DNA from: an uncultured Rhodospirillaceae bacterium
GTDB taxonomy: Bacteria > Pseudomonadota > Alphaproteobacteria > Rhodospirillales > Defluviicoccaceae
Direction: 5' to 3'
Assembly (NCBI GenBank): GCA_964619055.1
Contig: CAZUDB010000002.1
Span: forward strand, 29,723-93,722
DNA length: 64,000 nt
Shown here: piece after piece, positions 36,155 through 55,865 of the stretch
Layout: each line of letters opens with the position of its first letter
Position numbering within the stretch: the stretch's first letter is position 1
Translations under genes and position numbers: made by a program
The notes under the pieces: generated by a model
What the model saw: only the letters and a program-made list of their open reading frames with translations
Databases searched by the model: none
What the model was told of the DNA's origin: nothing

Positions 36155-37098
36155 GCCAGCGGCTGGAGCAGCGTGGGTACGAGCCGCGCTTTGTGACACC
36201 GGATCGTTTTCGAAGCACGCCCTGTCCTACCTATCCCGAGATCCGTCTGGCTATGACTCGGCCCTCGGCCGTGGCCGATATGATAAATGCCATCGAGCCA
36301 AGCGCCGTTCATATCGCAACCGAGGGACCCCTTGGCTGGCTCGCGCGCCATTACTGCCTTAGGCGAGGCTATCCGTTCACCACGGCCTATCACACGCGCT
36401 TCCCCGAATACGTCAAGCCGCGTTTCGGCATTCCGCACTCTTGGAGCTATCGCGTGCTCCGCCACTTCCATGGCCAGTCAGCCGGCATCATGGTGTCGAC
36501 GCCGAGCATCGAAGCGGAGCTTCGGGCGCGCGGATTCGATACCCCAATTAGGCGCTGGACACGCGGCGTCGACCTAACGCTGTTTCGGATTCGCCACGAT
36601 GTCGACTTGCGGCTCCCGCGGCCGATTTCCTTGTTTGTCGGCCGGCTCGCGGTCGAGAAGAACGTGGAGGCCTTCCTGAAACTCCAGCTGCCGGGCAGCA
36701 AGGTCGTGATCGGAGATGGCCCAATGCGGGCCCAATTACACTCCCATTATCCAAACGCACATTTTGTTGGACCGCAGTTTGGGGAAGATTTGGCACGCTA
36801 CTATGCCGGATCGGACGTTTTGGTGTTTTCGAGTCGGACCGACACGTTCGGTCTTGTCATCCTGGAAGCGTTGGCCTCGGGCCTGCCCGTCGCCGCCTAT
36901 CCGGTGCCGGGACCGCAGGACGTTCTGGATGGTTTCGACGTCGGCGTCCTTGACAACGATCTTGGCGCCGCCGTGAAGCGGGCCCTAATGATCGATCGCC
37001 CGCGCTGCCGGGCTTGGGCTGAACGCTTTTCGTGGGATGCCAGCGCGGATCAATTCCTTAGCAATCTCGCGGTGTTTCGCCCCACGGGTCAAACCTGA
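36082..37098 (+). CDS. agt: GT4-family glycosyltransferase; likely diacylglycerol glycosyltransferase (Agt-like)
   Basis: 338 aa starting MRICIVSDAWFPQVNGVVRTL, with a C-terminal GT1-fold E-x7-E-like region (SRTDTFGLVILEALASGLPV). It overlaps the plcP-like gene by 73 nt. Confidence 0.6.
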   Translation: MRICIVSDAWFPQVNGVVRTLHTLSQRLEQRGYEPRFVTPDRFRSTPCPTYPEIRLAMTRPSAVADMINAIEPSAVHIATEGPLGWLARHYCLRRGYPFTTAYHTRFPEYVKPRFGIPHSWSYRVLRHFHGQSAGIMVSTPSIEAELRARGFDTPIRRWTRGVDLTLFRIRHDVDLRLPRPISLFVGRLAVEKNVEAFLKLQLPGSKVVIGDGPMRAQLHSHYPNAHFVGPQFGEDLARYYAGSDVLVFSSRTDTFGLVILEALASGLPVAAYPVPGPQDVLDGFDVGVLDNDLGAAVKRALMIDRPRCRAWAERFSWDASADQFLSNLAVFRPTGQT

Positions 37099-39897: not shown

Positions 39898-40371
39898 TCA
39901 GACGTGCTCGGTCTTGGCCGCGATGACGCGCTGCTCCAATTGCTGAAAGCGGCTGGTAAGGTTTGCGAGGCGCTCCGATAACGAACGCATGACGGCCAGG
40001 GCGGCGTCGGGATTCTCAACAATCAGGCGGAGAAACACATCAACGTCAATCTTGAGGACTTCGAGATGTGATGATGCACGAATGGTTGCAGTGCGGGTTT
40101 GGTTAAGGATGATCGCCATCTCGCCGAAAAGCTCGTGGCGACCGAGGCTACCCACCTGGGTCTCGCTGCCTGCGGCACCGGTCAGGACGTCCACCTCCCC
40201 GCTTTCGATGACGTAAGCGCCATCGGCCGCGTCACCTTCCCGAAACAGCTCCTCGCCTCGTTCAAACGTCAAATAAGTGCTTGAAAACGCGAGTAGCTTT
40301 AGCTTGGCCATATCTAGGTGGCCAAACAGTGGGATGCCGCGGAGGATGGCGATCGCGTCACCGTATTGCAC
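39898..40371 (-). CDS. Standalone cyclic-nucleotide-binding (CAP effector) domain protein
   Basis: 157 aa. The beta-roll reads LRGIPLFGHLD...GEELFREGDAADGAYVIESGEVDV...LFGEMAIILNQTRTATIRA and is followed by a C-terminal helix. Confidence 0.8.
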   Translation of the reverse strand: MQYGDAIAILRGIPLFGHLDMAKLKLLAFSSTYLTFERGEELFREGDAADGAYVIESGEVDVLTGAAGSETQVGSLGRHELFGEMAIILNQTRTATIRASSHLEVLKIDVDVFLRLIVENPDAALAVMRSLSERLANLTSRFQQLEQRVIAAKTEHV

Positions 40372-40472: not shown

Positions 40473-43133
40473 TCAGGATGCGGTGACGCTGACTTGCGCC
40501 ACGGCGGCCCCGTCCGGCGGGTTGTCATGATCCTCTTCGTCCGGTTTGCCGTCCCTGACGACCCGTCCATGATCCATCACCAGCACCCGGTCAAATGCCG
40601 ATGCGTCAACTTCACTGTTCAGCACCCAAACGACCGCCCCCCGCTCAGCCACGACTGCCCGCATGATCGCGGTCTGGCTCGCGGGGTCAAGCGTGGCCGT
40701 AGCATGGTCCAGGACCAGAAGGTCGGGCTGCTTCAACAGTGCCCGCGCCAACAGCATTTTTTGTCGTTGTGCCGCTGACAACCGGCTGCCGCCGATACCG
40801 ACCTGGTGATCGAACCCGATTGCCACGATGGCTCGCCGCAAGCCGATCCGCGTGATCACATCCTCAATGAGGCCGCCCACCAGCCGCTGCGCTTGAAGTC
40901 GCCCGTAGACCAAGCGTCCGAACAAGACGTTGTCCTGAACCGAGGCAGCTGGGTTGTATTGGTCGGGCTCGAAAAACGCAACGGCGTGCTGAAGGTCCGC
41001 AGGAAGATCCTGAGCGAAGGCGTGGCGCGCAGCCAATAGACGTGGGGTGGTCTCGCCGGTGATCAACCCCAAGCGATGTCGCGCTGGGATCAACTTGAAA
41101 GGTAAAGACAGCAGCAGTTTGCGATCTTCCCGTGACAACCGATCCAGCCGCTGAGGATTGGCCCGCCGCAACACCCCCTGGTAGGTTGGCAGAGCGTCGA
41201 CGCTGATGAAGCTGAATCGCTCAAACAATTCGTCGCCCGGCTGTGCTCCCTGGAACAACTCCAGCATGATCTTGGCTACCTGCAGACCGTCGGAAACGAG
41301 GACTTCCTCCAGTTCGAAGCGGCGCAATACGGACAGCATGTATGGGTTTTCGGCGATGTGCTCCAGATCAAACACGGGACCGATCGGCGTCCCAAACAGC
41401 AGGTTCTCCGCAAGTGTCATGTTGTTGTTGTACTTGTCGCGGTCGAACGGCTCGACCAACCCGGTGTAGGCGGCGTCCTCAAGGCGATCGCGAAGCTCGC
41501 GCCGGGCGTCCAAGATTTGCTGGGACAAGCCCTCGTGCGATGCGGGGTCGATGCGTCCCTGTAGGCCGAAGCCAAACAGATCGTCGTCCATGCCCACAAG
41601 GCTCAGCACGGTCACGGCACGATCGGATAGATCCTCCAAGTCACGGGCATCTGCGTCGCGCAGGTCGATCCAAAGCCCATCCGGTTGGCTAACAGTGCTG
41701 CCTGATTGCTGGGCTTCCTGGATCCGCCGCTTGCGGGTGGACGACTGAGCCGGAGACTCCTTAGGCATGTCGATGGGAATCGGCTGGTGCTTCAGCCCAT
41801 AATAGAGGTTGTCACCAATTGACCCCTGGAATAGGTGCCCGGATTGGCCGACGTAAGCGATGCGTCGGCCCGTGACCGTTTGCGAGATTGTAGCAAGGTC
41901 GATGTCGCCAATGCGAATGCTGCCCGAGGTCGGGATCAGGAGCCGAGCGATCAGTTTGGCGAGCGAACTGGCGCCAGATCCTTCTTGACCAACGATGGCA
42001 ACGCGTTCTGACAGATCGAACGAGAATGACGCGCGGTCGACAACCCTGATGCCATCCTCTTCTTCGAGGGTGACTCCATTGGCTACGACCGTACCACTGA
42101 GCCGCGGGACCACGCCGTCCGCAGGCGTCTGTAGGCTTTCGTCTAAGATGCCCGGTGGATCAAACTGTTCGACCAGCTGGTCATACTTAATTCGTGTATC
42201 TTCCTTAATTTGATACCACTTGAGCAGTTCTTTCCAAGGAGAAGAGAGGTCCTTATAGGCAGCAAGTACGGCAACAAGCGCACCAAATGTGAGATCTCCA
42301 GTAATAACTAGGTATCCACCAATAGAAAAAAAGAAAAATGGCGTCAATTGACCGATAAAATTATTAAGAAATTTGATAAAAAACTTCTTTTTATAGATTT
42401 TGTATCGGATTTCGTAGATGGTTCCGAGCCATCTGGAGATATCTGCTTTTTCATATTCAGCAGTGTCGTTGGAGTGGACGTTCTCAATTCCCGATACCAC
42501 TTCCCCAAGACGTTCCGATAATTTTCTGACAGTTTGAACACGCTGCTTCGCAAGCACATTAACCTGTCGCTGCAACTTCGGAATGATGTACGCTTGAACA
42601 GGCGACAGGGCCATGGCAGCCAGACCAAGCTTCCAGTCTTGGGCGAACATGAACGCTAGGATCGTCAGCATCGTTCCGCCTTCAAAGGCCGGTGTCGCAA
42701 AGGCCTCGCCCACGAAACCGCCGACGGGCTCCACCTCTGCAGTGATCATGGCGATGATCTCGCCCTGGGAGGTCTTGCGGAAGCGAGGCAACGGAAATCT
42801 GAGAACACGACTGAACAGCTGATAGCGAAGGCGCCGCAACATCCGTTCACCAAGCTGGCCTTTATAGACATTAATATAATACCGAAAAATAAATCGAACA
42901 AAAACTAACAATAAAAACAAACCACACAGCATAAAAAGATATTGGATCTGCATAAGATCAAATCCAAATACTGTTTTCGGAAAATCAGTACTGCCAATCG
43001 CCTCGTTTACTATAATTTTCGGAACCTCGAGTGAGGCGTATAAAAATGGAAATGATGATATCGTAAGTATAAGGAGGAGTATTTGCTCCTTGCGGCTGTA
43101 TTTAAAGATGTAGCTGAACAGCGTTGGTTGCAT
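40473..43133 (-). CDS. ABC exporter-type fused permease/NBD protein with degenerate ATPase motifs and a large NBD insertion
   Basis: 886 aa with an N-terminal 6-TM ABC_membrane-like region. The NBD has Walker A GQEGSGAS (Lys replaced), Q-loop YVGQSG, signature LSAAQ and Walker B LLVLDHATATLD (catalytic Glu replaced by His). About 330 aa lie between the Q-loop and the signature. Confidence 0.78.
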   Translation of the reverse strand: MQPTLFSYIFKYSRKEQILLLILTISSFPFLYASLEVPKIIVNEAIGSTDFPKTVFGFDLMQIQYLFMLCGLFLLLVFVRFIFRYYINVYKGQLGERMLRRLRYQLFSRVLRFPLPRFRKTSQGEIIAMITAEVEPVGGFVGEAFATPAFEGGTMLTILAFMFAQDWKLGLAAMALSPVQAYIIPKLQRQVNVLAKQRVQTVRKLSERLGEVVSGIENVHSNDTAEYEKADISRWLGTIYEIRYKIYKKKFFIKFLNNFIGQLTPFFFFSIGGYLVITGDLTFGALVAVLAAYKDLSSPWKELLKWYQIKEDTRIKYDQLVEQFDPPGILDESLQTPADGVVPRLSGTVVANGVTLEEEDGIRVVDRASFSFDLSERVAIVGQEGSGASSLAKLIARLLIPTSGSIRIGDIDLATISQTVTGRRIAYVGQSGHLFQGSIGDNLYYGLKHQPIPIDMPKESPAQSSTRKRRIQEAQQSGSTVSQPDGLWIDLRDADARDLEDLSDRAVTVLSLVGMDDDLFGFGLQGRIDPASHEGLSQQILDARRELRDRLEDAAYTGLVEPFDRDKYNNNMTLAENLLFGTPIGPVFDLEHIAENPYMLSVLRRFELEEVLVSDGLQVAKIMLELFQGAQPGDELFERFSFISVDALPTYQGVLRRANPQRLDRLSREDRKLLLSLPFKLIPARHRLGLITGETTPRLLAARHAFAQDLPADLQHAVAFFEPDQYNPAASVQDNVLFGRLVYGRLQAQRLVGGLIEDVITRIGLRRAIVAIGFDHQVGIGGSRLSAAQRQKMLLARALLKQPDLLVLDHATATLDPASQTAIMRAVVAERGAVVWVLNSEVDASAFDRVLVMDHGRVVRDGKPDEEDHDNPPDGAAVAQVSVTAS

Positions 43134-43239
43134 AGGTATGTGTAGGTCTTGAAGAGCCTCAGAAAATATTGGGATTATAAGTCGACGTCATCGCGGCGCG
43201 GCTGCCATCGATACGAGCCGGATGTGATTTCCAGCGGTT

Positions 43240-45162
43240 TTAAGACGGCTTTGCGCTCGTCGACTCGAAAACGCGAACCACGTCGACGTCGAGGGTCCGG
43301 GTATCGGCGTCTTTCACCAACCAGTCACCGCTCGCGTCCTTTACAAAGCCCAGCTCCGACAGGACCTGCACGGCGGGGCCATTGCGCCCGGTGGCCCGGA
43401 ACCGAACCCACAGCGATGTGCCAAGGTTTGCTGTGCGTGCCAGAAGCGACGCAAACAAGGCTTGTTCCAACATTCGGCCTTGAACACGACATGACAGCAT
43501 GAACTCCTCCACAACGACACGATTGTCCGCATGTCGGACAACCGCAAAACCGACCGTTCCATAATCGCCAAATCGATCTCGGCATCGAAGAACCAGCTTG
43601 TCGGTTACGTTCGATGAGATCAAGTCTTCGACTTCCTTACTTGAGTACTTAGAGCCCGAATAATTGAGTTGGTTCGTCCGTTGAACGAGCTCGATGACTC
43701 TCGCCACGTCGTCGTCGGCGATTGGGTCAATTTGCAACTCTATCTCACAAGACTTTAGAAAACCAAGGTAATCGTTACCCCATTGGCATTGGTCTCGCCG
43801 GCGTGCCAGGTCTTCATGATAAAGGCGACGGCGATTACCAGCCTCGCGGCTGGCACTGCCGGCAAAACGCGGATCGGACAACAGGCGCGGCGCCATCTCC
43901 GGCGTTACAGTCAGCACCTCCGGAAGGGCTGAGGATACCTCGGTACGTTCGAACGGGGAATCGTCCACAAATGCGAAGGAGTCGAGCCCCAGATTCAGGT
44001 GCCTCGCGATTTGGAGCAGATGCTGGCTTTTGGGTCCCCAATCGATTTGCGGATGGAGCACAAGATCAGCAATGCCGAATCGCTCAAGTTGCGTCCAGGC
44101 GACCTCCAGATCGTTGCGGCTCGCGACACTGATCAAAATGCCGCGGGCATCGAGGCGGCGCATCGTCTCGACTATCTCGGGGCGCAAGCGCAGATGTTGG
44201 CCGCGACGATGGTCCGATTCCACGAGGACGCCATCCCACAGCGTGTTGTCCAAATCGAAAACGACGCACTTTATCGGCGGACCTCCCGATGGGGAGGGCG
44301 CCTCGGTTGCGGCCGCCGGGATGGCGCGTTGCCAATCGGCCTGATCAATGCCGGCCACAAAATCGAGAGTGAGAAAAACGAGCCTCGGTGCCGTATCGGC
44401 TTCAGGCTGAATGGAAATCTTGGATGGTTGGTTGGCGCCCAGAAGGTGAGCAAAGTGCTCACGCCCAATGATGTGAAGGCTGTATCCAGGCGGCGCTTTG
44501 AGCCGTGCGAGCATTGGCGGCAGCGGCTCCCCGTTCGGTCCGAGGGGGTGATCGTTCTTGATGCGATAGGTCACGCCGAGGACGATAGCCTCTGGTTGTG
44601 GGTTATAAAGTTCCGCAACGAACGCCTCCGGCGCGTCCGACACGGTCGTCGCCATCGCTGAGTTGTTCGGCGCCATGCACCGTCGCAGCATTAGCTTTTT
44701 CGCGACGCGGCGGGGATCCGGGGGAAGTGTTTTGCCGGTGGGATCGCGGACCAGGGATGGATCGTGATGGAGCGCACGGGTCCACGCCGCGAGTCGATGA
44801 TTCGGTGAAAAGGCAAGCACTCGTTCGCGCCGGATGATGCGGGCCATCGGCTCCAGTACCGTGTTGGCGTCGGCCTCGATTTTTCCCCAGGTCGCGAAGG
44901 CCAGATCGACGCCGTAGCTGCGCAAGGACGCGAAGCGGCGATCGCGGCGAAAGCCCCAAGTCAACCGCCGGCACCCGCCGTCCGCCCGCGGCATATAAAG
45001 GGCGCAGCTCTCGTAGCACTGCGGTGCCGCACACTCCATGCAATGCTCGCCCCACCATAGGAAGGACAGGGCGCGGACCGCCTTGATGGGCTGATACGTG
45101 GCGATCAGTCGTTCGGGCGAGACCTGATGGCGGGTCCGATCGTACTGGTCAAAATCAAACAT
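43240..45162 (-). CDS. FkbH-like HAD-IIIC family protein with N-terminal Cys-rich domain and C-terminal GNAT-like domain
   Basis: ORF 43240..45288 was trimmed to MFDFDQY at 45162. The HAD motif I is IKCVVFDLDNTLWDGV. The N-terminal motif is CMECAAPQCYESC. The C-terminal region (VVEEFMLSCRVQGRMLEQ) looks like the FkbH acyltransferase-like end. Confidence 0.72.
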   Translation of the reverse strand: MFDFDQYDRTRHQVSPERLIATYQPIKAVRALSFLWWGEHCMECAAPQCYESCALYMPRADGGCRRLTWGFRRDRRFASLRSYGVDLAFATWGKIEADANTVLEPMARIIRRERVLAFSPNHRLAAWTRALHHDPSLVRDPTGKTLPPDPRRVAKKLMLRRCMAPNNSAMATTVSDAPEAFVAELYNPQPEAIVLGVTYRIKNDHPLGPNGEPLPPMLARLKAPPGYSLHIIGREHFAHLLGANQPSKISIQPEADTAPRLVFLTLDFVAGIDQADWQRAIPAAATEAPSPSGGPPIKCVVFDLDNTLWDGVLVESDHRRGQHLRLRPEIVETMRRLDARGILISVASRNDLEVAWTQLERFGIADLVLHPQIDWGPKSQHLLQIARHLNLGLDSFAFVDDSPFERTEVSSALPEVLTVTPEMAPRLLSDPRFAGSASREAGNRRRLYHEDLARRRDQCQWGNDYLGFLKSCEIELQIDPIADDDVARVIELVQRTNQLNYSGSKYSSKEVEDLISSNVTDKLVLRCRDRFGDYGTVGFAVVRHADNRVVVEEFMLSCRVQGRMLEQALFASLLARTANLGTSLWVRFRATGRNGPAVQVLSELGFVKDASGDWLVKDADTRTLDVDVVRVFESTSAKPS

Positions 45163-45522
45163 GACGTCATTACCCGAGGCCAAACGGTCCCATACGGGGC
45201 CGGCCATGCAACGGAGGATTGGACGTCGGCGATTCGGTCGCCCGTCCGATTGAAGCGTTCGATTTCTGTGCCTTGATAGACAGACCAAACGTCAGTCTAT
45301 AGTGGTGGGTCCGCCACATGATTGCGATAAATATATCGCGAGAGACGGCGTAGAAGCACGAGCACCTTGACCTTACGCCGTTTTTGGGGCGAGGGTTGGC
45401 CCGACGAGAGCGATTTTCGGTGCGGTCCGCGTTCACCCTTGCGCGACTACTTTCTCGCTTTAGCATGGCAGCCCTCACTGACGTTTGAACCGCAGTGAGA
45501 CTCGTGGGCGATGTAAGCACGC

Positions 45523-46755
45523 ATGCCAAATGGTCACGGTCATCATCGGCTGCTCATCTACAGCCACGACTCTTTCGGGCTTGGTCACCTACGGCGATGC
45601 CGGGCGATTGCTCATGCCCTGGTTGACCGGCGATCTGACCTTTCCGTCCTGATCCTATCCGGATCGCCCATCATCGGCAGCTTTAGCTTTCGCAACCGTG
45701 TTGATTTTGTGCGCATTCCCGGTGTCATCAAACTCCGGGATGGCGATTATTCACCGCTGAAGCTGAACATCGGCATCGAACAGACCCTGCAGTTGAGGGC
45801 GTCGATCATCAGCCATACGGCCGAAGTGTTCGCGCCGGACGTCTTTCTGGTCGACAAGGAACCGCTTGGTTTGCGTGGCGAGGTCCGCGAAACCCTGGCT
45901 ATGCTGAAAGCGCGTGGCATCCCGCTTGTGTTGGGGCTTCGCGACGTCATGGACGATCCAGCCACGCTCGCCGAGGAATGGCGGCGCAAAAATGCCGTGC
46001 CCGCGCTTGCGGGGCTTTACGACCACATCTGGGTCTACGGTCTGCCCGAGATTTGTGACCCGTTGCAGGGCGTGCCTGTGCCAGCGGCTGTCCACAACAA
46101 GGTGCATTTCACGGGCTACATCCGCAGGACGCTGCCCGACGGCACCACGACCGCTGAACCGTGGACGTCGGCTGACACCGAGCCCTACATTCTGGTTACG
46201 ACGGGTGGCGGCGGCGATGGCGCGGCGGTCATCGACTGGGTCTTGAAGGCCTATGAGCATGACCCAAGGATCCCTTGGCGGGCGCGGGTGGTTTTTGGGC
46301 CGTTTATGCATTCGCGGGTGCAGTCGGCGTTTCGTGAGCGAGTCGCCCGGCTCGAATCCGTTGACGCCATCACCTTCGATGCCAACTTGGAAACTTTGAT
46401 TGCCCATGCGGCGGGGATCGTGGCCATGGGCGGCTATAACACCTTTTGCGAAATTCTGTCCTTCGACAAACCGGCACTGCTCGTCCCGCGTACGGTGCCA
46501 CGGCTGGAGCAGGCAATCCGGGCGGAGCGTGCTAGTGTCCTCGGGCTGGTTCGGACGTTACCTTTAGACGGCGATCGCGATCCCATCTTGATGGCGGCCG
46601 CGATTCGCGCACTCCCGTTCCAGCCCCGTCCATCACAGACCGACATTCCCGCCCTTTTGGATGGACTGAGTGAGATTGGCGCGCTTGTAGACGGGTGGCT
46701 CGACACATCGCTGGCGCGGCCCGACCGGCCGGCAGCGGTTCGATTGCCGGCCTGA
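45523..46755 (+). CDS. Glycosyltransferase, GT28-like fold (COG4671-type predicted glycosyltransferase), copy 1
   Basis: 410 aa with N-terminal LLIYSHDSFGLGHLRRCRAIAHAL and a C-terminal GGYNTFCEILSF motif typical of the MurG/UDP-glycosyltransferase C-domain. Confidence 0.7.
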   Translation: MPNGHGHHRLLIYSHDSFGLGHLRRCRAIAHALVDRRSDLSVLILSGSPIIGSFSFRNRVDFVRIPGVIKLRDGDYSPLKLNIGIEQTLQLRASIISHTAEVFAPDVFLVDKEPLGLRGEVRETLAMLKARGIPLVLGLRDVMDDPATLAEEWRRKNAVPALAGLYDHIWVYGLPEICDPLQGVPVPAAVHNKVHFTGYIRRTLPDGTTTAEPWTSADTEPYILVTTGGGGDGAAVIDWVLKAYEHDPRIPWRARVVFGPFMHSRVQSAFRERVARLESVDAITFDANLETLIAHAAGIVAMGGYNTFCEILSFDKPALLVPRTVPRLEQAIRAERASVLGLVRTLPLDGDRDPILMAAAIRALPFQPRPSQTDIPALLDGLSEIGALVDGWLDTSLARPDRPAAVRLPA

Positions 46756-46756
46756 C

Positions 46757-48085
46757 GTGCCCGAGGGTGCACCCCCATCGCCCCGGAGCGGCTCGATCGC
46801 GATAATCCTTAAAGGCTATCCCCGCCTGTCGGAGACATTCATCGCCCAGGAGATACGCGGCCTGGAACGCCGCGGCTTGTCACTGCGCCTTTACTCCCTT
46901 CGCCACCCCACGGACCATGCCACGCATCCGATCCATGCCGAGATCGAGGCACCCGTCGTCTATCTGCCCGAGTATCTTCACGACGCGCCGCGCCGTGTTG
47001 CGGCCGCTTGGCTGACCGTTCGACGTTGGCCGGGCACCCATGCTGCGCTTGTGCTGTGGCGACGCGATTTGACGGGTGATCCCAGTCGTAATCGGATCCG
47101 CCGTTTCGGCCAGGCGTGCGTCTTGGCCGCCGAACTCGCCGATGACGTGACCCATCTGCATGCTCATTTTCTGCATACGCCGGCATCGGTCACACGCTAT
47201 GCGGCAGTGATGCGCAGCTTGTCTTGGAGTGTTTCCGCCCATGCCAAGGACGTGTGGACGTTGCCCGACTGGGAGAAGCGCGAGAAGATCGCCTCCAGTC
47301 AATTCGTCGCTGCCTGCTCTGCTTACAACGCGGATCACCTGGCCGCTCTCGCACCGACGCCATCTCGCGTTCATCTCCTGTACCACGGCCTCGATTTGGA
47401 TCGGTTTCCACCGGCCGCGCGGATAAGGAGCGAACGCACTGGCGCTGATCCGAGAGACCCAGCAATCATCCTTTCGGTTGGGCGCCTAGTGGCCAAAAAG
47501 GGCTATGATGTGCTGCTTCAGGCGTTGGCGGCCTTACCCCCGGACTTGGCTTGGCGCTTCGTCCACATCGGAAGTGGACCATGTCAACCGGCGTTGGCTC
47601 GCCAATCTGCCGCCTTCGGCCTTACCGAGCGTGTCCAATGGTTGGGGGCGCAGTCCCAAAAGACCGTGCTGCGCTGTTTGCAAACGGCGGACCTGTTCGC
47701 ACTGGCATCCCGCATTACGGCTGACGGGGATCGCGACGGCTTGCCCAATGTCCTAATGGAGGCCCAGAGCCAGGGTTTGGCCTGTGTTGCCACGCGTGTT
47801 GCGGCAATTCCGGAGTTGATCACCCAAGAGCCCCGAAACCAGGCAACTGGTATGCTGGTCGCGCCAGATGACCCGCAAGCCCTATCCGAGGCGATCGCTC
47901 AGCTGATTGCAGATCCGGACCTGCGCGCCCGACTGGGCAGCGCTGGCGAAGCGCGGGTTCGCTCCAATTTCGATATGACCACGGGGCTCGACCGACTGGC
48001 TCAGTTACTGGCGCCCGGCCGCTTGCCTTCGAACAGCCCCGACAATGAGGTGAAAGCGTGCGCATCATCTTCCATGCGCCCCTGA
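46757..48085 (+). CDS. GT4-family glycosyltransferase
   Basis: 442 aa with GTG start 1 nt after the preceding stop. The C-terminal reads GRLVAKKGYDVLL...DGLPNVLMEAQSQGLACVAT. Confidence 0.78.
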   Translation: MPEGAPPSPRSGSIAIILKGYPRLSETFIAQEIRGLERRGLSLRLYSLRHPTDHATHPIHAEIEAPVVYLPEYLHDAPRRVAAAWLTVRRWPGTHAALVLWRRDLTGDPSRNRIRRFGQACVLAAELADDVTHLHAHFLHTPASVTRYAAVMRSLSWSVSAHAKDVWTLPDWEKREKIASSQFVAACSAYNADHLAALAPTPSRVHLLYHGLDLDRFPPAARIRSERTGADPRDPAIILSVGRLVAKKGYDVLLQALAALPPDLAWRFVHIGSGPCQPALARQSAAFGLTERVQWLGAQSQKTVLRCLQTADLFALASRITADGDRDGLPNVLMEAQSQGLACVATRVAAIPELITQEPRNQATGMLVAPDDPQALSEAIAQLIADPDLRARLGSAGEARVRSNFDMTTGLDRLAQLLAPGRLPSNSPDNEVKACASSSMRP

Positions 48086-49242
48086 AGCCTCCATCTCATC
48101 CGGTCCCCTCGGGCGATCGCCAGATGGCACGATTGTTCATGGCGGCGTTGGCTGCGGCCGGCCATGTGGTTAAGCTCGCGCCAGCGTTTCGGACATACGA
48201 CGGTTCCGGCGACCCTGCTCGCCAAGCACGGATCGCGGACCTAGGCCACAGTCTCGCCCAGCGGTGGCTCCAGCGCTGCGCTGCTGGTGATCCGTCCAGT
48301 CGGCCTGACCTTTGGTTCACCTACCATCTGTACCACAAAGCCCCCGATGTGTTGGGGCCAGCGATCAGCCAGGCCCTCGGCTGCGCGTACGTCGTTGCCG
48401 AAGCCTCCTATGCACCGAAGCGTATGGGTGGCCCGTGGGACCGGGGGCATCGAGCAGTTGCTGCCGCGCTCTCGAGGGCGGACCTGGTTCTGACGCTCAA
48501 CGAAGCCGACGCGCCGTGCCTGCTGCCCCTTCTCAAGCCCACATGCCGCCATGTTCTGTTCACCCCCTTTTTGGATGCCGCACCCCTGTTTGATGCCGCC
48601 AAATCGCGGTCCTGGCACCGCGCCGCGCTCAGTTGCCGTTGGGCTCTAGACCCGAGCGAGCCCTGGTTGATCGCCATGGCGATGATGCGCCCAGGCGCGA
48701 AACTGGCATCCTATCGCCTGTTGGCGGACGCTCTCGGTAGGACCACCCACCGGCGGTGGCGCTTGATCATTGTCGGCGATGGTCCGGCCGCGCCGGAGGT
48801 GCGAAACGCCTTTTCGCGAATTGCAGGGCGAGTGGTGTTCACCGGACAACTGGCGGCCGCGGACGTTGCTGCGCATTTGGCCGCCTGTGATCTTACGGTT
48901 TGGCCCGCCGTGGACGAGGCCTACGGGATGGCACTGCTCGAAGCTCAAGCGGCCGGATGTCCGGTTGTTGCCGGACGGACCGGTGGCGTACCTCGGATCG
49001 TCGCTCATGCGCGGACAGGTTGTTTGGTTCCCGTTGGCGACGTCTATGCGTTCGCGGACGCTGTGGGTGGCCTTCTGGAGGACCGCGAGGTCCTTTCCCG
49101 TTTGCGTTCGACGACCTGGAGCTACGTGAACGAACATCACAGCCTCCCGGCGGCAAGCCAGCGGCTCGATGCCCTACTTCGTCGGGCTAAAGGGCGCGCT
49201 GTTTCCGAGGCTTTGAAACGCGGGCTGATCTCCGCACACTAA
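48058..49242 (+). CDS. GT4-family glycosyltransferase
   Basis: 394 aa with GTG start overlapping the previous gene by 28 nt. It starts MRIIFHAPLKPPSHPVPSGDRQMAR and carries EAYGMALLEAQAAGCPVVA. Confidence 0.75.
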   Translation: MRIIFHAPLKPPSHPVPSGDRQMARLFMAALAAAGHVVKLAPAFRTYDGSGDPARQARIADLGHSLAQRWLQRCAAGDPSSRPDLWFTYHLYHKAPDVLGPAISQALGCAYVVAEASYAPKRMGGPWDRGHRAVAAALSRADLVLTLNEADAPCLLPLLKPTCRHVLFTPFLDAAPLFDAAKSRSWHRAALSCRWALDPSEPWLIAMAMMRPGAKLASYRLLADALGRTTHRRWRLIIVGDGPAAPEVRNAFSRIAGRVVFTGQLAAADVAAHLAACDLTVWPAVDEAYGMALLEAQAAGCPVVAGRTGGVPRIVAHARTGCLVPVGDVYAFADAVGGLLEDREVLSRLRSTTWSYVNEHHSLPAASQRLDALLRRAKGRAVSEALKRGLISAH

Positions 49243-49264
49243 GGGGCACTCTGGAGCAGCCGTC

Positions 49265-50428
49265 ATGTCCCTGCGCGTCTTGTTTTATGTCCAACACCTG
49301 TTGGGGATCGGCCACCTAAAACGGGCCGCCGCGCTTGCCGACGCCATGGTGCGGGACGGCTTACAGGTCCGCGTTGTGCTCGGTGGGTCGCAGGTACCGG
49401 GTATCCGTTTCGATGGTTGCGCTAGGGTTACACTGCCCGCCATTCGTTCCTTTGATAGCACATTTTCTAAGTTGGTGACTGACGGCGGTGAGCCCCTGGA
49501 TGACGACTTTCGTGACCGCCGGCGCGATCGGCTCCTCTACGAGTTCGCCACCGCCCGCCCCGATGTCGTTTTGATCGAGCAGTTTCCCTTTGGCCGTCGA
49601 GCCTTTCGGTTCGAGTTGATGCCGCTGATTGCCGCAGCCCGCTCAGCACGCCCGGAGCCGCGGCTGCTCAGTTCCGTTCGCGACATTGTGGTACGCAAGC
49701 GAGATCCGGCCCGCAACGACGACATGGTCCGTTTGGCGCAGCGCTGGTTCGACCTTGTGCTTGTGCATGGAGATCCGGAGCTGGCTCCACTGACGGACTC
49801 CCTGCCCGAGGCGACCGCCCTCACAGATAAGCTTTGCTACACAGGATATGTCTGCCGGCGGCATGTTCCTGCCGCGACCGCGTCAGCGTCATTGCGGAAG
49901 GCAAGGGCGGGAACGGGGGAGGTTATCGTTTCCGTTGGCGGCGGTGCCGTGGGCGAGGCCCTGTTGCGGTGCGCGTTGCAGGCACGCCCGATCAGCTCAC
50001 TGGCGAACCGGCCGTGGCGGCTGATTGCGGGCCCCAATCTGCCGGCGGGCACCTTCTCCGATCTCGTGTGGGCGGCGCCGGACGGGGTCATCGTGAACCG
50101 GTGGCGCGACGATATGCCGATCCTGTTGCGCAATTGCATCGTGTCCGTATCGCAAGCGGGCTACAACACCGTTTGTGACCTCCTTCAGGCGAGTACATCT
50201 GCGGTTCTGGTGCCGTTTGCAGACGGTGCGGAAACCGAGCAGACGATCCGCGCCGAGGCGCTTGCCAAATGCAATGCCGCCGTTATGGTCCATCCGAACG
50301 CGTTGACGCCGAAGACTCTCGCTGAGGCGATTGCCACGGCAACATCACGGCCTCCCATGCCTGCGGGCTTGGTGGCGCTGGACGGCGCTGCTATGGCGGC
50401 CCGGGTGGTGGCTTCTAGGCCGTCGTGA
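49265..50428 (+). CDS. Glycosyltransferase, GT28-like fold (COG4671-type), copy 2
   Basis: 387 aa with VLFYVQHLLGIGHLKRAAALADAM and SQAGYNTVCDLL. It is a paralogue of 45523..46755. Confidence 0.7.
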   Translation: MSLRVLFYVQHLLGIGHLKRAAALADAMVRDGLQVRVVLGGSQVPGIRFDGCARVTLPAIRSFDSTFSKLVTDGGEPLDDDFRDRRRDRLLYEFATARPDVVLIEQFPFGRRAFRFELMPLIAAARSARPEPRLLSSVRDIVVRKRDPARNDDMVRLAQRWFDLVLVHGDPELAPLTDSLPEATALTDKLCYTGYVCRRHVPAATASASLRKARAGTGEVIVSVGGGAVGEALLRCALQARPISSLANRPWRLIAGPNLPAGTFSDLVWAAPDGVIVNRWRDDMPILLRNCIVSVSQAGYNTVCDLLQASTSAVLVPFADGAETEQTIRAEALAKCNAAVMVHPNALTPKTLAEAIATATSRPPMPAGLVALDGAAMAARVVASRPS

Positions 50429-50515
50429 TGGCGTGCGGATCGCTGGCTAATGAGACAGCGCAACCGCTTTGCTTTGGTGGTGTTCGGCGACGAGTGAAAA
50501 CCGCCGGGGGTTGGC

Positions 50516-51313
50516 ATGACCGGTTGGGAAGGCCTGACGGACGAATTGGATGCTTGGTCGAGCGCCGGCCGTGTCGCGACCCTGTGGTGGCGCGACGACG
50601 ATGCAACGCGGGCGTCGCCTGACCTGGAGCGACTCCTGGATTTGAGCGACCGATTCGGTGTGCCGGTTGCTTTGGCGGTTATTCCGCGAGACATCGATCC
50701 CTCATTAACCTCTGCGATAGTGGGCCGAGCCGCAGTCGCCACACTTCAGCACGGCTGGAGCCACGACGATCACGCGGTCGACGGCGATCGCAAAGAGGAG
50801 CACGGGCCGGACCGACCCCGTGATGTCGTGCTCGATGAATTGGCTGAAGGATGGAGGCGGATCCGTACCCTTCCCGGCAGCTTGCCTGTATATGTCGCCC
50901 CGTGGAATCGCCTCGATCCTTCGTTGATCTCGCATCTTCCGTCCGTTGGCTTGCATGCCGTATCGACCGATCATGCGCGCTCGGCCGCTGAACCAGAGGC
51001 TGGGGTGCGCCGTACGAACATTCACTGTGATCCCATCGATTGGCATGGCGGTGGCCGCTTCGGAGGTGACGAGGCTGCGTTGGGGCAGGTAATCGAACAT
51101 CTTGCCAACCGTCGCACCAACCGCGTCGATGCCTATGAGCCGACGGGACTTATGACCCACCACCAGTTTCATGACCCCGAATGTTGGACGTTCGTTGGCC
51201 GACTGCTTGCGCATACGCTTGCCCATCCGGCCGCTCGGTGGCTTTCCGCGCGCGACGCATTTTGGCCCGATGGCGACGTGCCGACGGTGCATGTGGCCGA
51301 GCGTCGCACATGA
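50516..51313 (+). CDS. Polysaccharide deacetylase-like protein (divergent)
   Basis: 265 aa with ATLWWRDDDAT...GVPVALAVIP...LQHGWSHDDH, resembling a NodB/DUF2334-type deacetylase layout. The assignment is by motif resemblance only. Confidence 0.5.
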   Translation: MTGWEGLTDELDAWSSAGRVATLWWRDDDATRASPDLERLLDLSDRFGVPVALAVIPRDIDPSLTSAIVGRAAVATLQHGWSHDDHAVDGDRKEEHGPDRPRDVVLDELAEGWRRIRTLPGSLPVYVAPWNRLDPSLISHLPSVGLHAVSTDHARSAAEPEAGVRRTNIHCDPIDWHGGGRFGGDEAALGQVIEHLANRRTNRVDAYEPTGLMTHHQFHDPECWTFVGRLLAHTLAHPAARWLSARDAFWPDGDVPTVHVAERRT

Positions 51314-51821
51314 CCGCAGCCACACTGACTTATCCATGGGACGACGTGGCCGCTGACTATCTCCGGGCGGGCGTCGGGCTCGGCCTCACGTTGGTTCCAC
51401 TTATCGCTTTGGAGACCGCAATACCGGTAGCGGCAGTTCTGTCGGGGGCCGCGTTGCTGTTTGGCGCGTTCGCGGTTCGTACCATCAATCTGCACTTGTC
51501 CCGGATTGAGGTGGATGACGTGGGACTCCGCCATGCAGGTTTAGTGACGCGCGCAATCCGCTGGTCCGATCTGGACGGCTTGACGCTTGCCTTCTATGCG
51601 CATCGGCGTGATCGCAGCGAAGGTTGGATGCGCCTTCGCTTGAGTGGCCAGGGCCAGCGTTTGGCGGTCGAGTCGGGACTTCAAGGTTTTGAGGCCTTGG
51701 CCGAACGCGCTTTGCGGGCGGCGCGGGACAATGGCATCACATTAGACGAAAGGTCGCTTGCTAACCTGGAAACCCTTGGCGTCAACCGGCAAGCGGATGG
51801 AGCGCTGCTCGGGAGGCTGCC

Positions 51822-51825
<4 letters not shown>
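51310..51825 (+). CDS. Two-TM membrane protein of unknown function
   Basis: ORF 51181..51825 was trimmed to MTAATLTYPW at 51310 (ATGA overlap with the deacetylase stop). It has two hydrophobic helices followed by a soluble domain. Its stop overlaps the GTG start of the ABC ATPase. Confidence 0.5.
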
Positions 51826-53747
<1,922 letters not shown>

Positions 53748-53893
53748 CGGTGGCCGCTTTAACGGTTCGCCGTGCTTCTTGTTGTGTTATGGACGAGGTA
53801 TGGTGCTCCGGTCGTAGGACAATGATCGGACCAAAAACGAACCAGACGGTGACTCGCTGAATCGCCAAGATCTGGATAGCGGAGAACGAGAGT

Positions 53894-55819: not shown

Positions 55820-55865
55820 GGTAACGGCGGCCGGCGACGGGGCGGTGTAGGGTTTTTGGTAGATC

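What the first reader, a model, noticed from the sequence alone, without database searches (positions are those of the whole stretch)
40473..43133. ABC exporter with every catalytic ATPase motif degenerate and a ~330-aa NBD insertion containing repeated Q-loop-like segments
**Seen directly.**
- Walker A is GQEGSGAS (no Lys).
- The signature is LSAAQ instead of LSGGQ.
- Walker B is LLVLDH (catalytic Glu replaced by His).
- The H-loop position appears to lack His.
- About 330 residues lie between the Q-loop (YVGQSGHLFQGSIGDNLYYG) and the signature. This insertion contains two further copies of the post-Q-loop motif (NMTLAENLLFGTP and AASVQDNVLFGRLVYG). That suggests internal duplication of the helical-subdomain entry.

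**Inference.**
- Asymmetric ABC proteins usually keep one consensus site. A single-NBD half-transporter with all motifs degenerate would form a homodimer with no canonical site.
- It therefore may be non-catalytic (a regulator or scaffold), may use an unknown partner NBD, or may be controlled by the adjacent standalone cNMP-binding protein.
Basis: partly seen in the sequence, partly recalled or inferred. Interest (0 to 1): 0.65.

Follow-up and report, generated by a model that had tools for sequence, protein, structure and literature searches.

The report
ABC exporter lacking ATPase motifs, cNMP-linked
This gene encodes a membrane protein built like an ATP-driven exporter, but it has lost the residues needed to use ATP, carries three copies of one sub-domain, and is always paired with a cyclic-nucleotide sensor, so it probably belongs to a large unstudied family of signal-gated rather than ATP-powered ABC proteins.

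Summary
ORF 40473-43133(-) is an intact 886-aa type IV ABC exporter half-transporter. Its Walker A Lys, Walker B Glu, H-loop His, signature GG and A-loop aromatic residue are all replaced.

It is not a pseudogene. At least 594 species representatives (mostly Alphaproteobacteria) encode full-length relatives. In the window's clade, 104 of 118 members lack K, E and H together, and none of 307 family members keeps the signature GG. The membrane domain is the best-conserved region.

The roughly 290-aa "insertion" is a tandem triplication of the ABC helical subdomain (hhalign 92-98%). It has no Pfam, PDB-sequence or Foldseek match.

A cNMP-binding gene follows the ABC gene in 74 of 80 loci. In a sister clade it is fused to the C-terminus, sometimes with a degenerate GGDEF domain and often beside a class III cyclase. 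In the window's clade the pair faces a conserved four-glycosyltransferase cluster. An orthologous cluster elsewhere still keeps K, E and H.

Best reading: a homodimeric pseudo-ATPase ABC-fold gate or flippase controlled by a cyclic-nucleotide sensor. No partner half-transporter is linked.

This is a new variant of a known kind and is uncharacterised in the literature searched. The mechanism is inferred, not shown.

The parts
40473..43133 (-). Complete ORF, 886 aa: type IV ABC-exporter-fold half-transporter with a pseudo-NBD
   Evidence: AF2 model pLDDT 84.8, pTM 0.78. Foldseek top hits are TmrAB, TM287/288, HlyB, PCAT1 and P-gp.
42144..43133 (-). Transmembrane domain (residues 1-330, six long TM helices). 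It is the most conserved region of the protein.
   Evidence: Pfam ABC_membrane 1.5e-27. DSSP helices. Mean column conservation 0.80 in the window clade.
41862..42116 (-). N-terminal part of the RecA-like NBD core (residues 340-424), including the A-loop position (Leu356) and the degenerate Walker A
41967..41990 (-). Walker A GQEGSGAS (Lys replaced by Ala388)
   Evidence: Aligned to GCGKS of ABCB proteins. Translation check. Lys present in only 3 of 118 clade members.
41469..41861 (-). Helical-subdomain copy 1 (HD1, residues 425-555). It contains the true Q-loop strand (Gln430), the SIGDNLYYG helix, a roughly 40-aa private insert and a signature-helix-like GLSQQILDARRELRDRL.
   Evidence: hhalign R1 vs R3 95.7%, E 8.6e-9, 89 columns. 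DSSP.
40989..41468 (-). Helical-subdomain copy 2 (HD2, residues 556-715). It contains VEPFDRDKYNNNMTLAENLLFG, an extended helical bundle with the invariant FERFSF and PFKLIPARHRLG motifs, and a second signature-helix-like PRLLAARHAF.
   Evidence: hhalign R2 vs R3 98.2%, E 3.2e-14. Invariant residues. No Pfam, PDB or Foldseek match.
40725..40988 (-). Helical-subdomain copy 3 (HD3, residues 716-803). This is the canonical copy and carries the degenerate signature LSAAQ (nt 40767-40781).
   Evidence: Matched by NBD models from residue 718 or 756 onward. Conservation 0.74.
40536..40724 (-). C-terminal part of the RecA-like core (residues 804-866). It holds Walker B LLVLDH (nt 40704-40721), D-loop ATLD and the H-loop position Asn839/Ser840 (nt 40614-40619). 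It is the least conserved region.
   Evidence: Conservation 0.57.
39898..40371 (-). Stand-alone cyclic-nucleotide-binding (CNB) protein, 157 aa, 101 nt downstream and probably co-transcribed. It is the predicted regulatory partner.
   Evidence: Pfam cNMP_binding 2.7e-22. Phosphate-binding cassette GE[IM]A..PRTATV.A is conserved. Downstream in 74 of 80 loci. Homologous to the fused C-terminal domains, E 1e-12 to 1e-35. No terminator in the gap and a GGAG ribosome-binding site.
45523..51825 (+). Conserved, divergently oriented cluster: GT28-like (45523-46755), GT4 (46757-48085), GT4 (48058-49242), MurG-like GT28 (49265-50428) and two unknown ORFs (50516-51313, 51181-51825). This is the presumed biosynthetic partner of the ABC/CNB pair.
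   Evidence: Pfam and NCBIfam. Present in 70, 72, 65, 73, 52 and 42 of 80 loci respectively. Same order in L083.
43240..45288 (-). FkbH/HAD-IIIC-domain protein inserted between the ABC gene and the glycosyltransferase cluster. This is a clade-specific accessory gene, not a core part.
   Evidence: TIGR01686 FkbH 1e-70. Present in only 5 of 80 loci.

Best explanation
**What it is**
The gene encodes a member of a large, uncharacterised, mainly alphaproteobacterial family of type IV ABC-exporter-fold half-transporters. I expect it to act as a homodimer.

**Shown here**
- The membrane domain and the interface with the cytoplasmic domain are under strong constraint.
- The nucleotide-binding domain is a pseudo-ATPase. 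In the window's clade the A-loop aromatic residue, Walker A Lys, Walker B Glu, H-loop His and signature Gly-Gly are all gone, and those positions drift freely.
- Fold-defining residues persist: GxxGxG, R-L-S-x-x-Q-R-Q-K, the Walker B Asp and the D-loop.
- The helical subdomain, which is the part that grips the coupling helices, has been triplicated in tandem (HD1-HD2-HD3).
- The protein is obligatorily partnered with a cyclic-nucleotide-binding domain. That domain is either the co-transcribed downstream gene, as here, or a C-terminal fusion.

**Inferred mechanism**
- cAMP or cGMP binding to a CNB dimer docked beneath or beside the two pseudo-NBDs takes over the job that ATP binding and hydrolysis normally do. 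This would resemble the C-terminal regulatory domains of MetN, ModC and MalK.
- The CNB dimer would set whether the NBD-like domains are together or apart, and so whether the membrane domain is inward-closed or open.
- The extra helical subdomains probably provide the docking and transmission surface.
- The protein would then act as a signal-gated, ATP-hydrolysis-independent gate or flippase for the glycolipid or oligosaccharide made by the four adjacent glycosyltransferases.
- Movement would be driven downhill, by the proton-motive force, or by ongoing synthesis.
For: - **Motifs.** Confirmed against solved exporters.
- **Clade-wide loss.** Catalytic residues are lost across the clade while the ORFs stay full length.
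- **Conservation gradient.** TMD 0.80 > HD3 0.74 > HD2 0.68 > core-N 0.66 > HD1 0.59 > core-C 0.57. This is the reverse of what a working ATPase would show.
- **Structure.** A confident type IV exporter model that includes the insertion.
- **Triplication.** Shown by hhalign.
- **CNB linkage.** The CNB gene is downstream in 74 of 80 loci. There is no terminator between the genes. The CNB phosphate-binding cassette is intact.
- **Fusions.** ABC-CNB and ABC-CNB-GGDEF fusions are abundant and colinear with the window's two genes.
- **Cyclases.** Class III cyclases sit next to fused forms and next to the CNB gene in about 8 of 80 unfused loci.
- **Glycosyltransferase synteny.**
- **Natural experiment.** The orthologous cluster L083 keeps K, E and H, so these residues were lost within an otherwise unchanged system.
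- **No partner.** No linked second half-transporter.
- **Precedents.** A CNB domain is required for the function of the ABC exporter HetC (PMC10986499). The MsbA membrane domain can use the proton gradient (PMC4979069, abstract only).
Against: - No biochemical data exist. Loss of ATP binding is inferred from sequence.
- 22 of 121 aligned sequences (the query plus its 120 close homologues) have Arg at the Walker A Lys position, and the P-loop glycines are kept, so some phosphate ligand could still bind.
- I could not inspect model coordinates or predict the ABC:CNB complex, so where the CNB docks and what HD1 and HD2 do are guesses.
- The transported substrate is unknown, and the glycosyltransferase cluster has no recognisable priming transferase.
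- The fused sister clade lacks the glycosyltransferases and carries degenerate GGDEF domains. That fits a pure signalling role at least as well as transport.
- A partner encoded elsewhere in the genome cannot be excluded.
Confidence: 0.5

Rival explanations
1. It is a signalling or scaffold protein and not a transporter. The ABC fold would serve as a membrane anchor or sensor that relays a membrane or periplasmic cue together with cNMP status to cytoplasmic partners, for example by organising or switching the glycosyltransferase complex. Nothing would cross the membrane through it.
For: - Many paralogues are fused to CNB plus a degenerate GGDEF domain, typical of signalling proteins.
- Those paralogues sit beside cyclases and response regulators rather than biosynthetic genes.
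- Catalytic residues are lost.
- ABC transporters with sensory rather than transport roles are documented (PMC7828314, title and abstract).
Against: - The TMD is the most conserved region, with a complete six-helix exporter architecture and conserved coupling-helix motifs.
- In the window's clade the gene is tied to a four-glycosyltransferase cluster that has no other exporter.
Confidence: 0.25
2. It is one half of a heterodimeric ABC exporter. The catalytically competent partner would be encoded elsewhere in the genome, giving one working ATP site.
For: - Heterodimeric exporters with one degenerate site are common; TmrAB and TM287/288 are among the best structural matches.
- Genomes were not searched in full.
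Against: - In such pairs the degenerate subunit keeps a consensus signature for the partner's site. Here the signature GG is absent in 0 of 307 members.
- Partner genes are normally adjacent, but only 1 of 85 sources has any second TMD-like hit within about 10 kb, and that hit is weak.
- No other exporter-type gene lies in the 64-kb window.
Confidence: 0.1
3. It is a cryptic ATPase or nucleotide binder. The site would still bind and perhaps slowly hydrolyse ATP, or another phosphate ligand, using non-canonical residues, so the protein would remain an ATP-dependent pump regulated by cNMP.
For: - P-loop glycines, the Walker B Asp and the D-loop are conserved.
- Arg replaces Lys in 22 of the 121 aligned sequences (query plus 120 close homologues).
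- Sister clades keep Lys and Glu (79% and 72%).
Against: - In the window protein five independent ATP-contacting elements are altered at once.
- The substituted positions vary freely among close relatives (A/R/T/V/Q at 388, Q/H/G/R/A at 810), which indicates no selection on them.
- The catalytic core is the least conserved region.
Confidence: 0.07
4. It is a Pycsar-like anti-phage effector: a cNMP-sensing membrane protein triggered by a cyclase to disrupt the membrane.
For: - The CNB domain and the cyclases next to fused paralogues give domain-level hits to PycTIR and PycC models.
- A cyclase plus a CNB-bearing membrane protein has the same general logic.
Against: - The hits are generic CNB and class III cyclase homology.
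- The window has no cyclase.
- The gene sits in a stable, vertically conserved chromosomal context across at least 70 species, next to glycosyltransferase and peptide-transport genes.
- One neighbouring cyclase carries a CHASE2 sensor domain, typical of environmental signalling.
Confidence: 0.02
5. It is a decaying pseudogene or an annotation artefact.
For: - All catalytic motifs are degenerate.
Against: - The 886-aa frame is intact and aligns end to end with more than 120 homologues at 54-69% identity and with at least 594 species representatives.
- There are many invariant residues, including within the insertion.
- The structure model is confident.
Confidence: 0.01

Closest known systems
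Heterodimeric type IV ABC exporters with one degenerate ATP site (TM287/288, TmrAB, BmrCD)
   Same: - Same TMD and NBD fold; they are among the best Foldseek matches.
- Non-consensus residues at the catalytic Glu, the H-loop and the signature are tolerated.
   Different: - Those proteins always keep one consensus site and have an adjacent partner gene.
- Here Walker A, Walker B, the H-loop and the signature are all degenerate in the same chain.
- No partner is linked.
- The helical subdomain is triplicated.
HetC of Nostoc PCC 7120 (CNB-domain-containing PCAT ABC exporter; PMC10986499)
   Same: - An ABC exporter whose function depends on an attached cNMP-binding-type domain.
- It is involved in making a differentiated cell envelope.
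   Different: - HetC's CNB domain is N-terminal, next to a C39 peptidase. It binds ppGpp in vitro, and the catalytic Glu970 is essential.
- Here the CNB domain is C-terminal or a separate gene, there is no peptidase, and the catalytic residues are absent.
C-terminal regulatory domains of ABC importer ATPases (MetN C2, ModC, MalK), from my own knowledge of these systems
   Same: - A small ligand-binding domain attached after the NBD can dimerise and hold the NBDs apart or together. This gives ligand control of the transport cycle.
   Different: - Those are type I and II importers with fully active ATPases and different regulatory folds.
- The analogy is mechanistic only and was not tested here.
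CFTR and SUR (ABC-fold proteins used as a gated channel and a channel regulator), from my own knowledge
   Same: - The type IV ABC exporter architecture is repurposed from pump to ligand-gated device.
- One ATP site is degenerate.
- Both are under cyclic-nucleotide-dependent control.
   Different: - CFTR and SUR still bind ATP at both sites and hydrolyse it at one.
- Their control by cAMP is indirect, through PKA phosphorylation of the R domain.
- Here no consensus site remains and the cNMP sensor is a direct partner.
SbmA/BacA (NBD-less proteins with an ABC-exporter-type TMD, driven by the proton gradient), from my own knowledge
   Same: - They show that this TMD fold can work without ATP hydrolysis.
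   Different: - SbmA and BacA have lost the NBD entirely.
- This family keeps and enlarges an NBD-like domain.
Rad50/SMC/UvrA-type ABC ATPases, from my own knowledge
   Same: - A large insertion lies at the same topological site, between the Q-loop lobe and the signature motif.
   Different: - Those insertions are coiled coils or DNA-binding domains in soluble, active ATPases.
- Here the insertion consists of duplicated helical subdomains in a membrane half-transporter.

Membership tests
ABC superfamily, type IV (ABCB-like) exporter half-transporter | Six-helix type IV transmembrane domain (Pfam ABC_membrane) | tested here: met
   PF00664 at 1.5e-27, 97 bits against a cut-off of 28. AF2 helices and Foldseek hits to TmrAB, TM287/288, HlyB and P-gp.
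ABC superfamily, type IV (ABCB-like) exporter half-transporter | NBD fold (Pfam ABC_tran) | tested here: met
   PF00005 at 1.1e-21, 78 bits against a cut-off of 25, in two stretches split by the insertion.
ABC superfamily, type IV (ABCB-like) exporter half-transporter | Walker A GxxGxGK[ST] | tested here: not met
   GQEGSGAS, with Ala at the Lys position. Lys present in 3 of 118 clade members.
ABC superfamily, type IV (ABCB-like) exporter half-transporter | Walker B hhhhDE with a catalytic Glu | tested here: not met
   LLVLDH. Asp is kept and Glu is replaced by His. Glu present in 5 of 118.
ABC superfamily, type IV (ABCB-like) exporter half-transporter | Signature LSGGQ | tested here: not met
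   LSAAQ. The GG pair is present in 0 of 307 family members.
ABC superfamily, type IV (ABCB-like) exporter half-transporter | H-loop histidine | tested here: not met
   Asn839 and Ser840 occupy the aligned position. His present in 7 of 118.
ABC superfamily, type IV (ABCB-like) exporter half-transporter | ATP binding and hydrolysis coupled to transport | not testable with these tools
   Needs purified protein. Sequence evidence argues against it.
MsbA lipid A flippase (TIGR02203 equivalog) | Score at or above the curated cut-off | tested here: not met
   203.9 bits against a cut-off of 602.
HepA-family heterocyst polysaccharide exporter (NF045513) | Score at or above the curated cut-off | tested here: not met
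   172.3 bits against a cut-off of 725.
Heterodimeric ABC exporter with one degenerate site | Adjacent gene for a second half-transporter | tested here: not met
   No second TMD-like gene in the window. Only 1 of 85 sources has a weak second hit.
Heterodimeric ABC exporter with one degenerate site | The degenerate chain contributes a consensus signature to the partner's active site | tested here: not met
   LSAAQ. GG present in 0 of 307.
HetC-type CNB-PCAT exporters | N-terminal CNB domain plus C39 peptidase domain on the exporter, with an active ATPase | tested here: not met
   No peptidase or N-terminal CNB domain. The CNB domain is a downstream gene or a C-terminal fusion. The catalytic Glu is absent.
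Pycsar anti-phage system | PycC cyclase adjacent to a CNB-TIR or CNB-TM effector in a two-gene defence operon | tested here: not met
   No cyclase in the window. PADLOC gives only domain-level CNB and cyclase hits. The chromosomal synteny is stable.
Cyclic-nucleotide-binding domain proteins (PF00027), for the partner gene 39898-40371 | CNB fold with an intact phosphate-binding cassette (G-E ... R-[ST]-A) | tested here: met
   PF00027 at 2.7e-22. FGEMAIILNQTRTATIRA in the window, and GE[IM]A..PRTATV.A conserved in 74 orthologues. Ligand identity was not tested.

The most novel reading that the evidence does not exclude
This would be the first family of ABC-fold membrane transporters in which the ATP motor has been completely replaced by a second-messenger switch. 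A homodimer with no functional ATP sites would have its inward/outward transition driven by cAMP or cGMP binding to a partner CNB dimer. That dimer would dock on a triplicated helical subdomain, producing a cyclic-nucleotide-gated flippase or channel for a cell-envelope glycoconjugate in Rhodospirillales and relatives. Intermediate evolutionary stages, with K and E retained, are still present in sister lineages.
Probability: 0.3. Interest if true: 0.85.

Novelty: new variant of a known kind. Interest (0 to 1): 0.7.

Why it matters
- **A test of the ABC paradigm.** ABC exporters are the standard example of ATP-powered alternating access. All known degenerate members still keep one working site. 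A widespread family that keeps the membrane domain and coupling interface under strong selection, discards every catalytic residue, and recruits a cyclic-nucleotide sensor would show how a primary pump turns into a ligand-gated device. The family has 785 clusters at 50% identity and occurs in at least 594 species.
- **Natural intermediates.** Orthologous clusters with and without K, E and H exist, so the transition can be tested experimentally.
- **A new domain architecture.** A triplicated helical subdomain has not been described as an NBD architecture.
- **A candidate cNMP effector.** It offers a direct bacterial effector linking cAMP or cGMP to envelope glycan biosynthesis. The lineages concerned include the Azospirillum and Rhodospirillum relatives, where cGMP is known to control cyst development.
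- **An annotation fix.** Current annotation ("ABC transporter ATP-binding protein/permease", "multidrug transport system") is misleading for this family.

Tried and rejected
- **Pseudogene or artefact.** Rejected. Homologues are full length and conserved.
- **Mis-placed motifs.** Rejected. The only change is that the H-loop His aligns to Ser840 rather than Asn839.
- **Known-domain origin of the insertion.** No Pfam hit at E<=1. No PDB sequence hit with a family profile at E<=10. Foldseek of an insertion-only AF2 model against the PDB gave a best E of 2.2. Only self-comparison revealed its origin.
- **Whole-model Foldseek.** It returned only generic exporters and said nothing about the insertion.
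- **Linked heterodimer partner.** Not found.
- **Pycsar or other defence system.** Only generic domain hits.
- **FkbH gene as a core component.** Rejected. It is present in only 5 of 80 loci.
- **Cyclase in the window.** None found by tblastn.
- **Active diguanylate cyclase output in fused forms.** Rejected. None of 77 has GG[DE]EF.
- **Literature.** Six full-text searches found no description of this family. The R. centenum CgrA regulon paper lists an "ABC transporter ATP-binding protein" RC1_0024, but I could not check whether it belongs to this family.
- **Technical dead ends.** The look-up of the Magnetospira protein P0350 found no record. A PDB search with the first GT28-like protein found nothing.
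- **Not possible here.** I could not inspect model coordinates or predict complexes.


Full report
**1. The observation**

The ORF at 40473..43133 on the minus strand is intact and 886 aa long. Pfam finds an ABC exporter membrane domain at residues 53-291. It also finds an ABC ATPase domain split into two stretches, 366-474 and about 756-866. NCBIfam gives only sub-threshold matches to MsbA, HepA, CydD and type I secretion exporters.

HMMER alignments to solved ABCB exporters fix the motif positions, and I re-translated the coordinates.
- Walker A is GQEGSGAS, with Ala388 in place of Lys.
- Q-loop Gln430 is present.
- The signature is LSAAQ.
- Walker B is LLVLDH, with His810 in place of the catalytic Glu.
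- The D-loop is ATLD.
- The H-loop His aligns with Ser840, next to Asn839.
- The A-loop aromatic position is Leu356.

There are 338 residues between the end of the Q-loop motif and the signature. The net insertion is about 290 aa.

**2. Not a pseudogene, but a large family**

A protein search returned more than 120 full-length proteins of about 880 aa at 54-69% identity. Most come from Rhodospirillales MAGs, and one is from Defluviicoccus vanus.

A scan of one genome per GTDB species found at least 594 species with a relative. These include cultured Azospirillum, Thalassobaculum, Nisaea, Sneathiella and Oceanibacterium.

A search with the insertion alone (residues 447-716) against 1.84 billion cluster representatives found 785 clusters at E<=1e-3 and 524 at E<=1e-10.

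The insertion contains many invariant residues.

**3. The degeneracy is a clade property**

The table gives the motif census for 307 full-length family members.

| Group | n | Walker A Lys | Walker B Glu | H-loop His | Signature GG | None of K/E/H |
|---|---|---|---|---|---|---|
| Window clade | 118 | 3 | 5 | 7 | 0 | 104 |
| CNB-fused forms | 137 | 108 | 99 | 2 | 0 | 22 |
| Other unfused | 52 | 21 | 13 | 10 | 0 | 24 |

- In the window clade 25 members have an aromatic residue at the A-loop position.
- The substituted positions vary freely, for example A/R/T/V/Q at 388 and Q/H/G/R/A at 810.
- Scaffold residues are kept: the P-loop glycines, R-L-S-x-x-Q-R-Q-K, the Walker B Asp and A-x-A-x-L-D.
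- Mean column conservation falls in the order TMD 0.80, HD3 0.74, HD2 0.68, NBD core-N 0.66, HD1 0.59, NBD core-C 0.57.

Selection therefore acts on the membrane domain and the helical subdomains, not on the catalytic core.

**4. What the insertion is**

Profile-profile self-comparison shows three tandem copies of the ABC helical subdomain.
- HD1 is residues 425-555, HD2 is 556-715 and HD3 is 716-803.
- HD2 vs HD3 scores 98.2% (E 3e-14), HD1 vs HD3 95.7% (E 9e-9) and HD1 vs HD2 92% (E 6e-7).
- The HD1 alignment spans the whole unit: the Q-loop strand, the S[IV]xxN[IL]xxG helix, the "vL..vGL...GL" helices, and a signature-helix equivalent (GLSQQILDARRELRDRL against RLSAAQRQKMLLARALLK).
- Only HD3 keeps a recognisable signature.

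AlphaFold2 models the whole protein confidently, with mean pLDDT 84.8, pTM 0.78 and about 85-93 across the insertion. Foldseek identifies the type IV exporter fold.

The insertion has no Pfam hit and no PDB sequence hit. An insertion-only model (pLDDT 81) has no significant Foldseek match.

**5. The CNB partner**

- The 157-aa gene 101 nt downstream (39898-40371) is a cNMP-binding domain protein.
- No terminator-like site lies in the gap, and a GGAG ribosome-binding site precedes its GTG start.
- Homologues of this gene lie immediately downstream of the ABC gene in 74 of 80 loci. Most exceptions are contig ends.
- Its phosphate-binding cassette is conserved.
- Among divergent insertion-bearing representatives, 22 of the 71 full-length proteins carry a C-terminal CNB domain homologous to the window's stand-alone protein, at E 1e-12 to 1e-35. 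A further representative, P0137, lacks the membrane domain but has NBD-CNB-GGDEF.
- Pfam confirms the ABC_membrane-ABC_tran-cNMP_binding architecture, with GGDEF in some.
- A dedicated search shows these fused forms are abundant in Rhodospirillales, including Magnetospira sp. QH-2.
- One fused protein, P0140, maps colinearly onto the window's ABC ORF (residues 1-860) and CNB ORF (residues 910-1048).

This is classic gene-fusion evidence for a physical and functional partnership.

**6. Genomic context**

In the window's clade the ABC-CNB pair is divergently oriented from a conserved cluster.

| Gene | Loci with it (of 80) |
|---|---|
| GT28-like | 70 |
| GT4 | 72 |
| GT4 (second) | 65 |
| MurG-like GT28 | 73 |
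| Unknown ORF 50516-51313 | 52 |
| Unknown ORF 51181-51825 | 42 |
| GsiA-like peptide-transporter ATPase | 54 |

- The FkbH-domain gene between the ABC gene and this cluster occurs in only 5 of 80 loci.
- Fused paralogues are not next to glycosyltransferases. They sit beside class III nucleotidyl cyclases and response regulators.
- Cyclases also follow the CNB gene in about 8 of the 80 unfused loci, but there is none in the window.
- Locus L083 has the same four-GT/ABC/CNB cluster, yet its ABC protein keeps Lys (GQAGSGKSE), Glu (MLVLNEA) and His (VLH). The catalytic residues were therefore lost within an otherwise unchanged system.
- No second exporter-type gene is linked.

**7. Interpretation**

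Shown:
- a conserved type IV ABC-fold half-transporter;
- clade-wide loss of all catalytic ATP-site residues;
- a triplicated helical subdomain;
- an obligate genomic or fused partnership with a CNB domain;
- linkage to a glycosyltransferase cluster in this clade.

Inferred:
- The protein is a homodimeric pseudo-ATPase.
- Its conformational switch is operated by cyclic-nucleotide binding to the CNB partner, acting on the NBD-like domains in the way the C-terminal regulatory domains of MetN, ModC and MalK do.
- The extra helical subdomains serve as a docking or transmission surface.
- It gates or flips the glycoconjugate made next door without ATP hydrolysis.

The main rival is that it does not transport at all and is instead a cNMP-responsive membrane scaffold or sensor. 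The signalling-type fusions, whose GGDEF domains are all degenerate (0 of 77 have GG[DE]EF), support that reading.

A distal heterodimer partner, cryptic ATP use and a Pycsar-like defence role are less likely.

**8. Comparison with known systems and novelty**

The closest known systems are:
- heterodimeric exporters with one degenerate site;
- HetC, an ABC exporter that requires a CNB-type domain but has an essential catalytic Glu (PMC10986499);
- CFTR and SUR;
- regulatory-domain-controlled importer ATPases;
- NBD-less SbmA and BacA;
- Rad50, SMC and UvrA, for the topological site of the insertion.

The protein belongs to the ABC superfamily by fold and homology, but it fails every catalytic-motif criterion. 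It also fails the curated cut-offs for MsbA and HepA.

Six literature searches found no description of this family.

I rate it a new variant of a known kind, with interest 0.7. The architecture and the comparative evidence are solid and would surprise an ABC specialist. The mechanism and the substrate remain inferences.

Noticed in passing
window 43240-45288 (-): A 682-aa protein with an FkbH/HAD-IIIC C-terminal half (TIGR01686, 1e-70). Its roughly 330-aa N-terminal half has no family hit and includes a Cys-rich stretch (WWGEHCMECAAPQCYESCALY). It is wedged between the ABC gene and the glycosyltransferase cluster only in the window's closest relatives (5 of 80 loci), which suggests a lineage-specific modification of the cluster's product.
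   Followed up: partly
P0274-P0388 and L037:1625-5164 (related proteins, not in the window): Many paralogues are ABC-CNB-GGDEF fusions of about 1160-1206 aa. None of 77 has an intact GG[DE]EF motif. These proteins therefore stack three nucleotide-handling domains, of which two (the NBD and the GGDEF) look non-catalytic.
   Followed up: partly
L081:12171-13451 and L082:12048-13994: Class III nucleotidyl cyclase genes sit directly next to fused ABC-CNB genes. One overlaps the ABC stop codon and the other carries a CHASE2 sensor domain. Similar cyclases follow the CNB gene in about 8 of 80 unfused loci (for example L012, L038, L079).
   Followed up: partly
window 42300-42599 and 42900-43199: There are two sharp AT-rich dips (GC 0.387 against about 0.60 around them) inside the TMD-coding part of the ABC gene. 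They coincide with highly conserved segments rich in Lys, Phe, Ile, Tyr and Asn, so they probably reflect amino-acid composition rather than foreign origin.
   Followed up: partly
window 50516-51313 (+) and 51181-51825 (+): Two overlapping ORFs with no significant family match (there is a weak DUF2334 hit at 0.009 for the first). They are conserved after the fourth glycosyltransferase in 52 and 42 of 80 loci. They are likely uncharacterised members of the same pathway, and the start of the second ORF is probably mis-set.
   Followed up: partly
window 51822-58015 (+): A Dpp/Opp-type importer lies here: a fused double ATPase similar to GsiA/YejF, a 641-aa family-5 binding protein and two permeases. 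It stays syntenic with the glycosyltransferase cluster in 54 of 80 loci, even where the cluster is rearranged (L010). It may be functionally linked or may just be an old neighbour.
   Followed up: no
window 24936-27032 (-) and 27033-28670 (-): A 698-aa protein combines DUF2341, a Laminin_G_3 (concanavalin-like) domain and a C-terminal MotA/ExbB proton-channel domain. It lies next to a ShlB/FhaC-type POTRA outer-membrane protein. This is an unusual pairing.
   Followed up: no
window 35171-36154 (+) and 36082-37098 (+): An LpxH-like metallophosphoesterase ORF overlaps by about 70 nt a GT4 glycosyltransferase that resembles glycolipid synthases (weak MGlcDAG-synthase and GlcN-PG-synthase hits). 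This may be a separate glycolipid module next to the ABC/CNB locus. It is not conserved with the locus: a partial GT4 hit in 28 of 80 loci and the phosphoesterase in 0 of 80.
   Followed up: no
window 58937-59776 (-): A second CNB-like coding region (tblastn hit at 59285-59581 with the CNB part of P0140, E 6e-7) lies in a 279-aa ORF. It is probably a CRP/FNR-type regulator.
   Followed up: no
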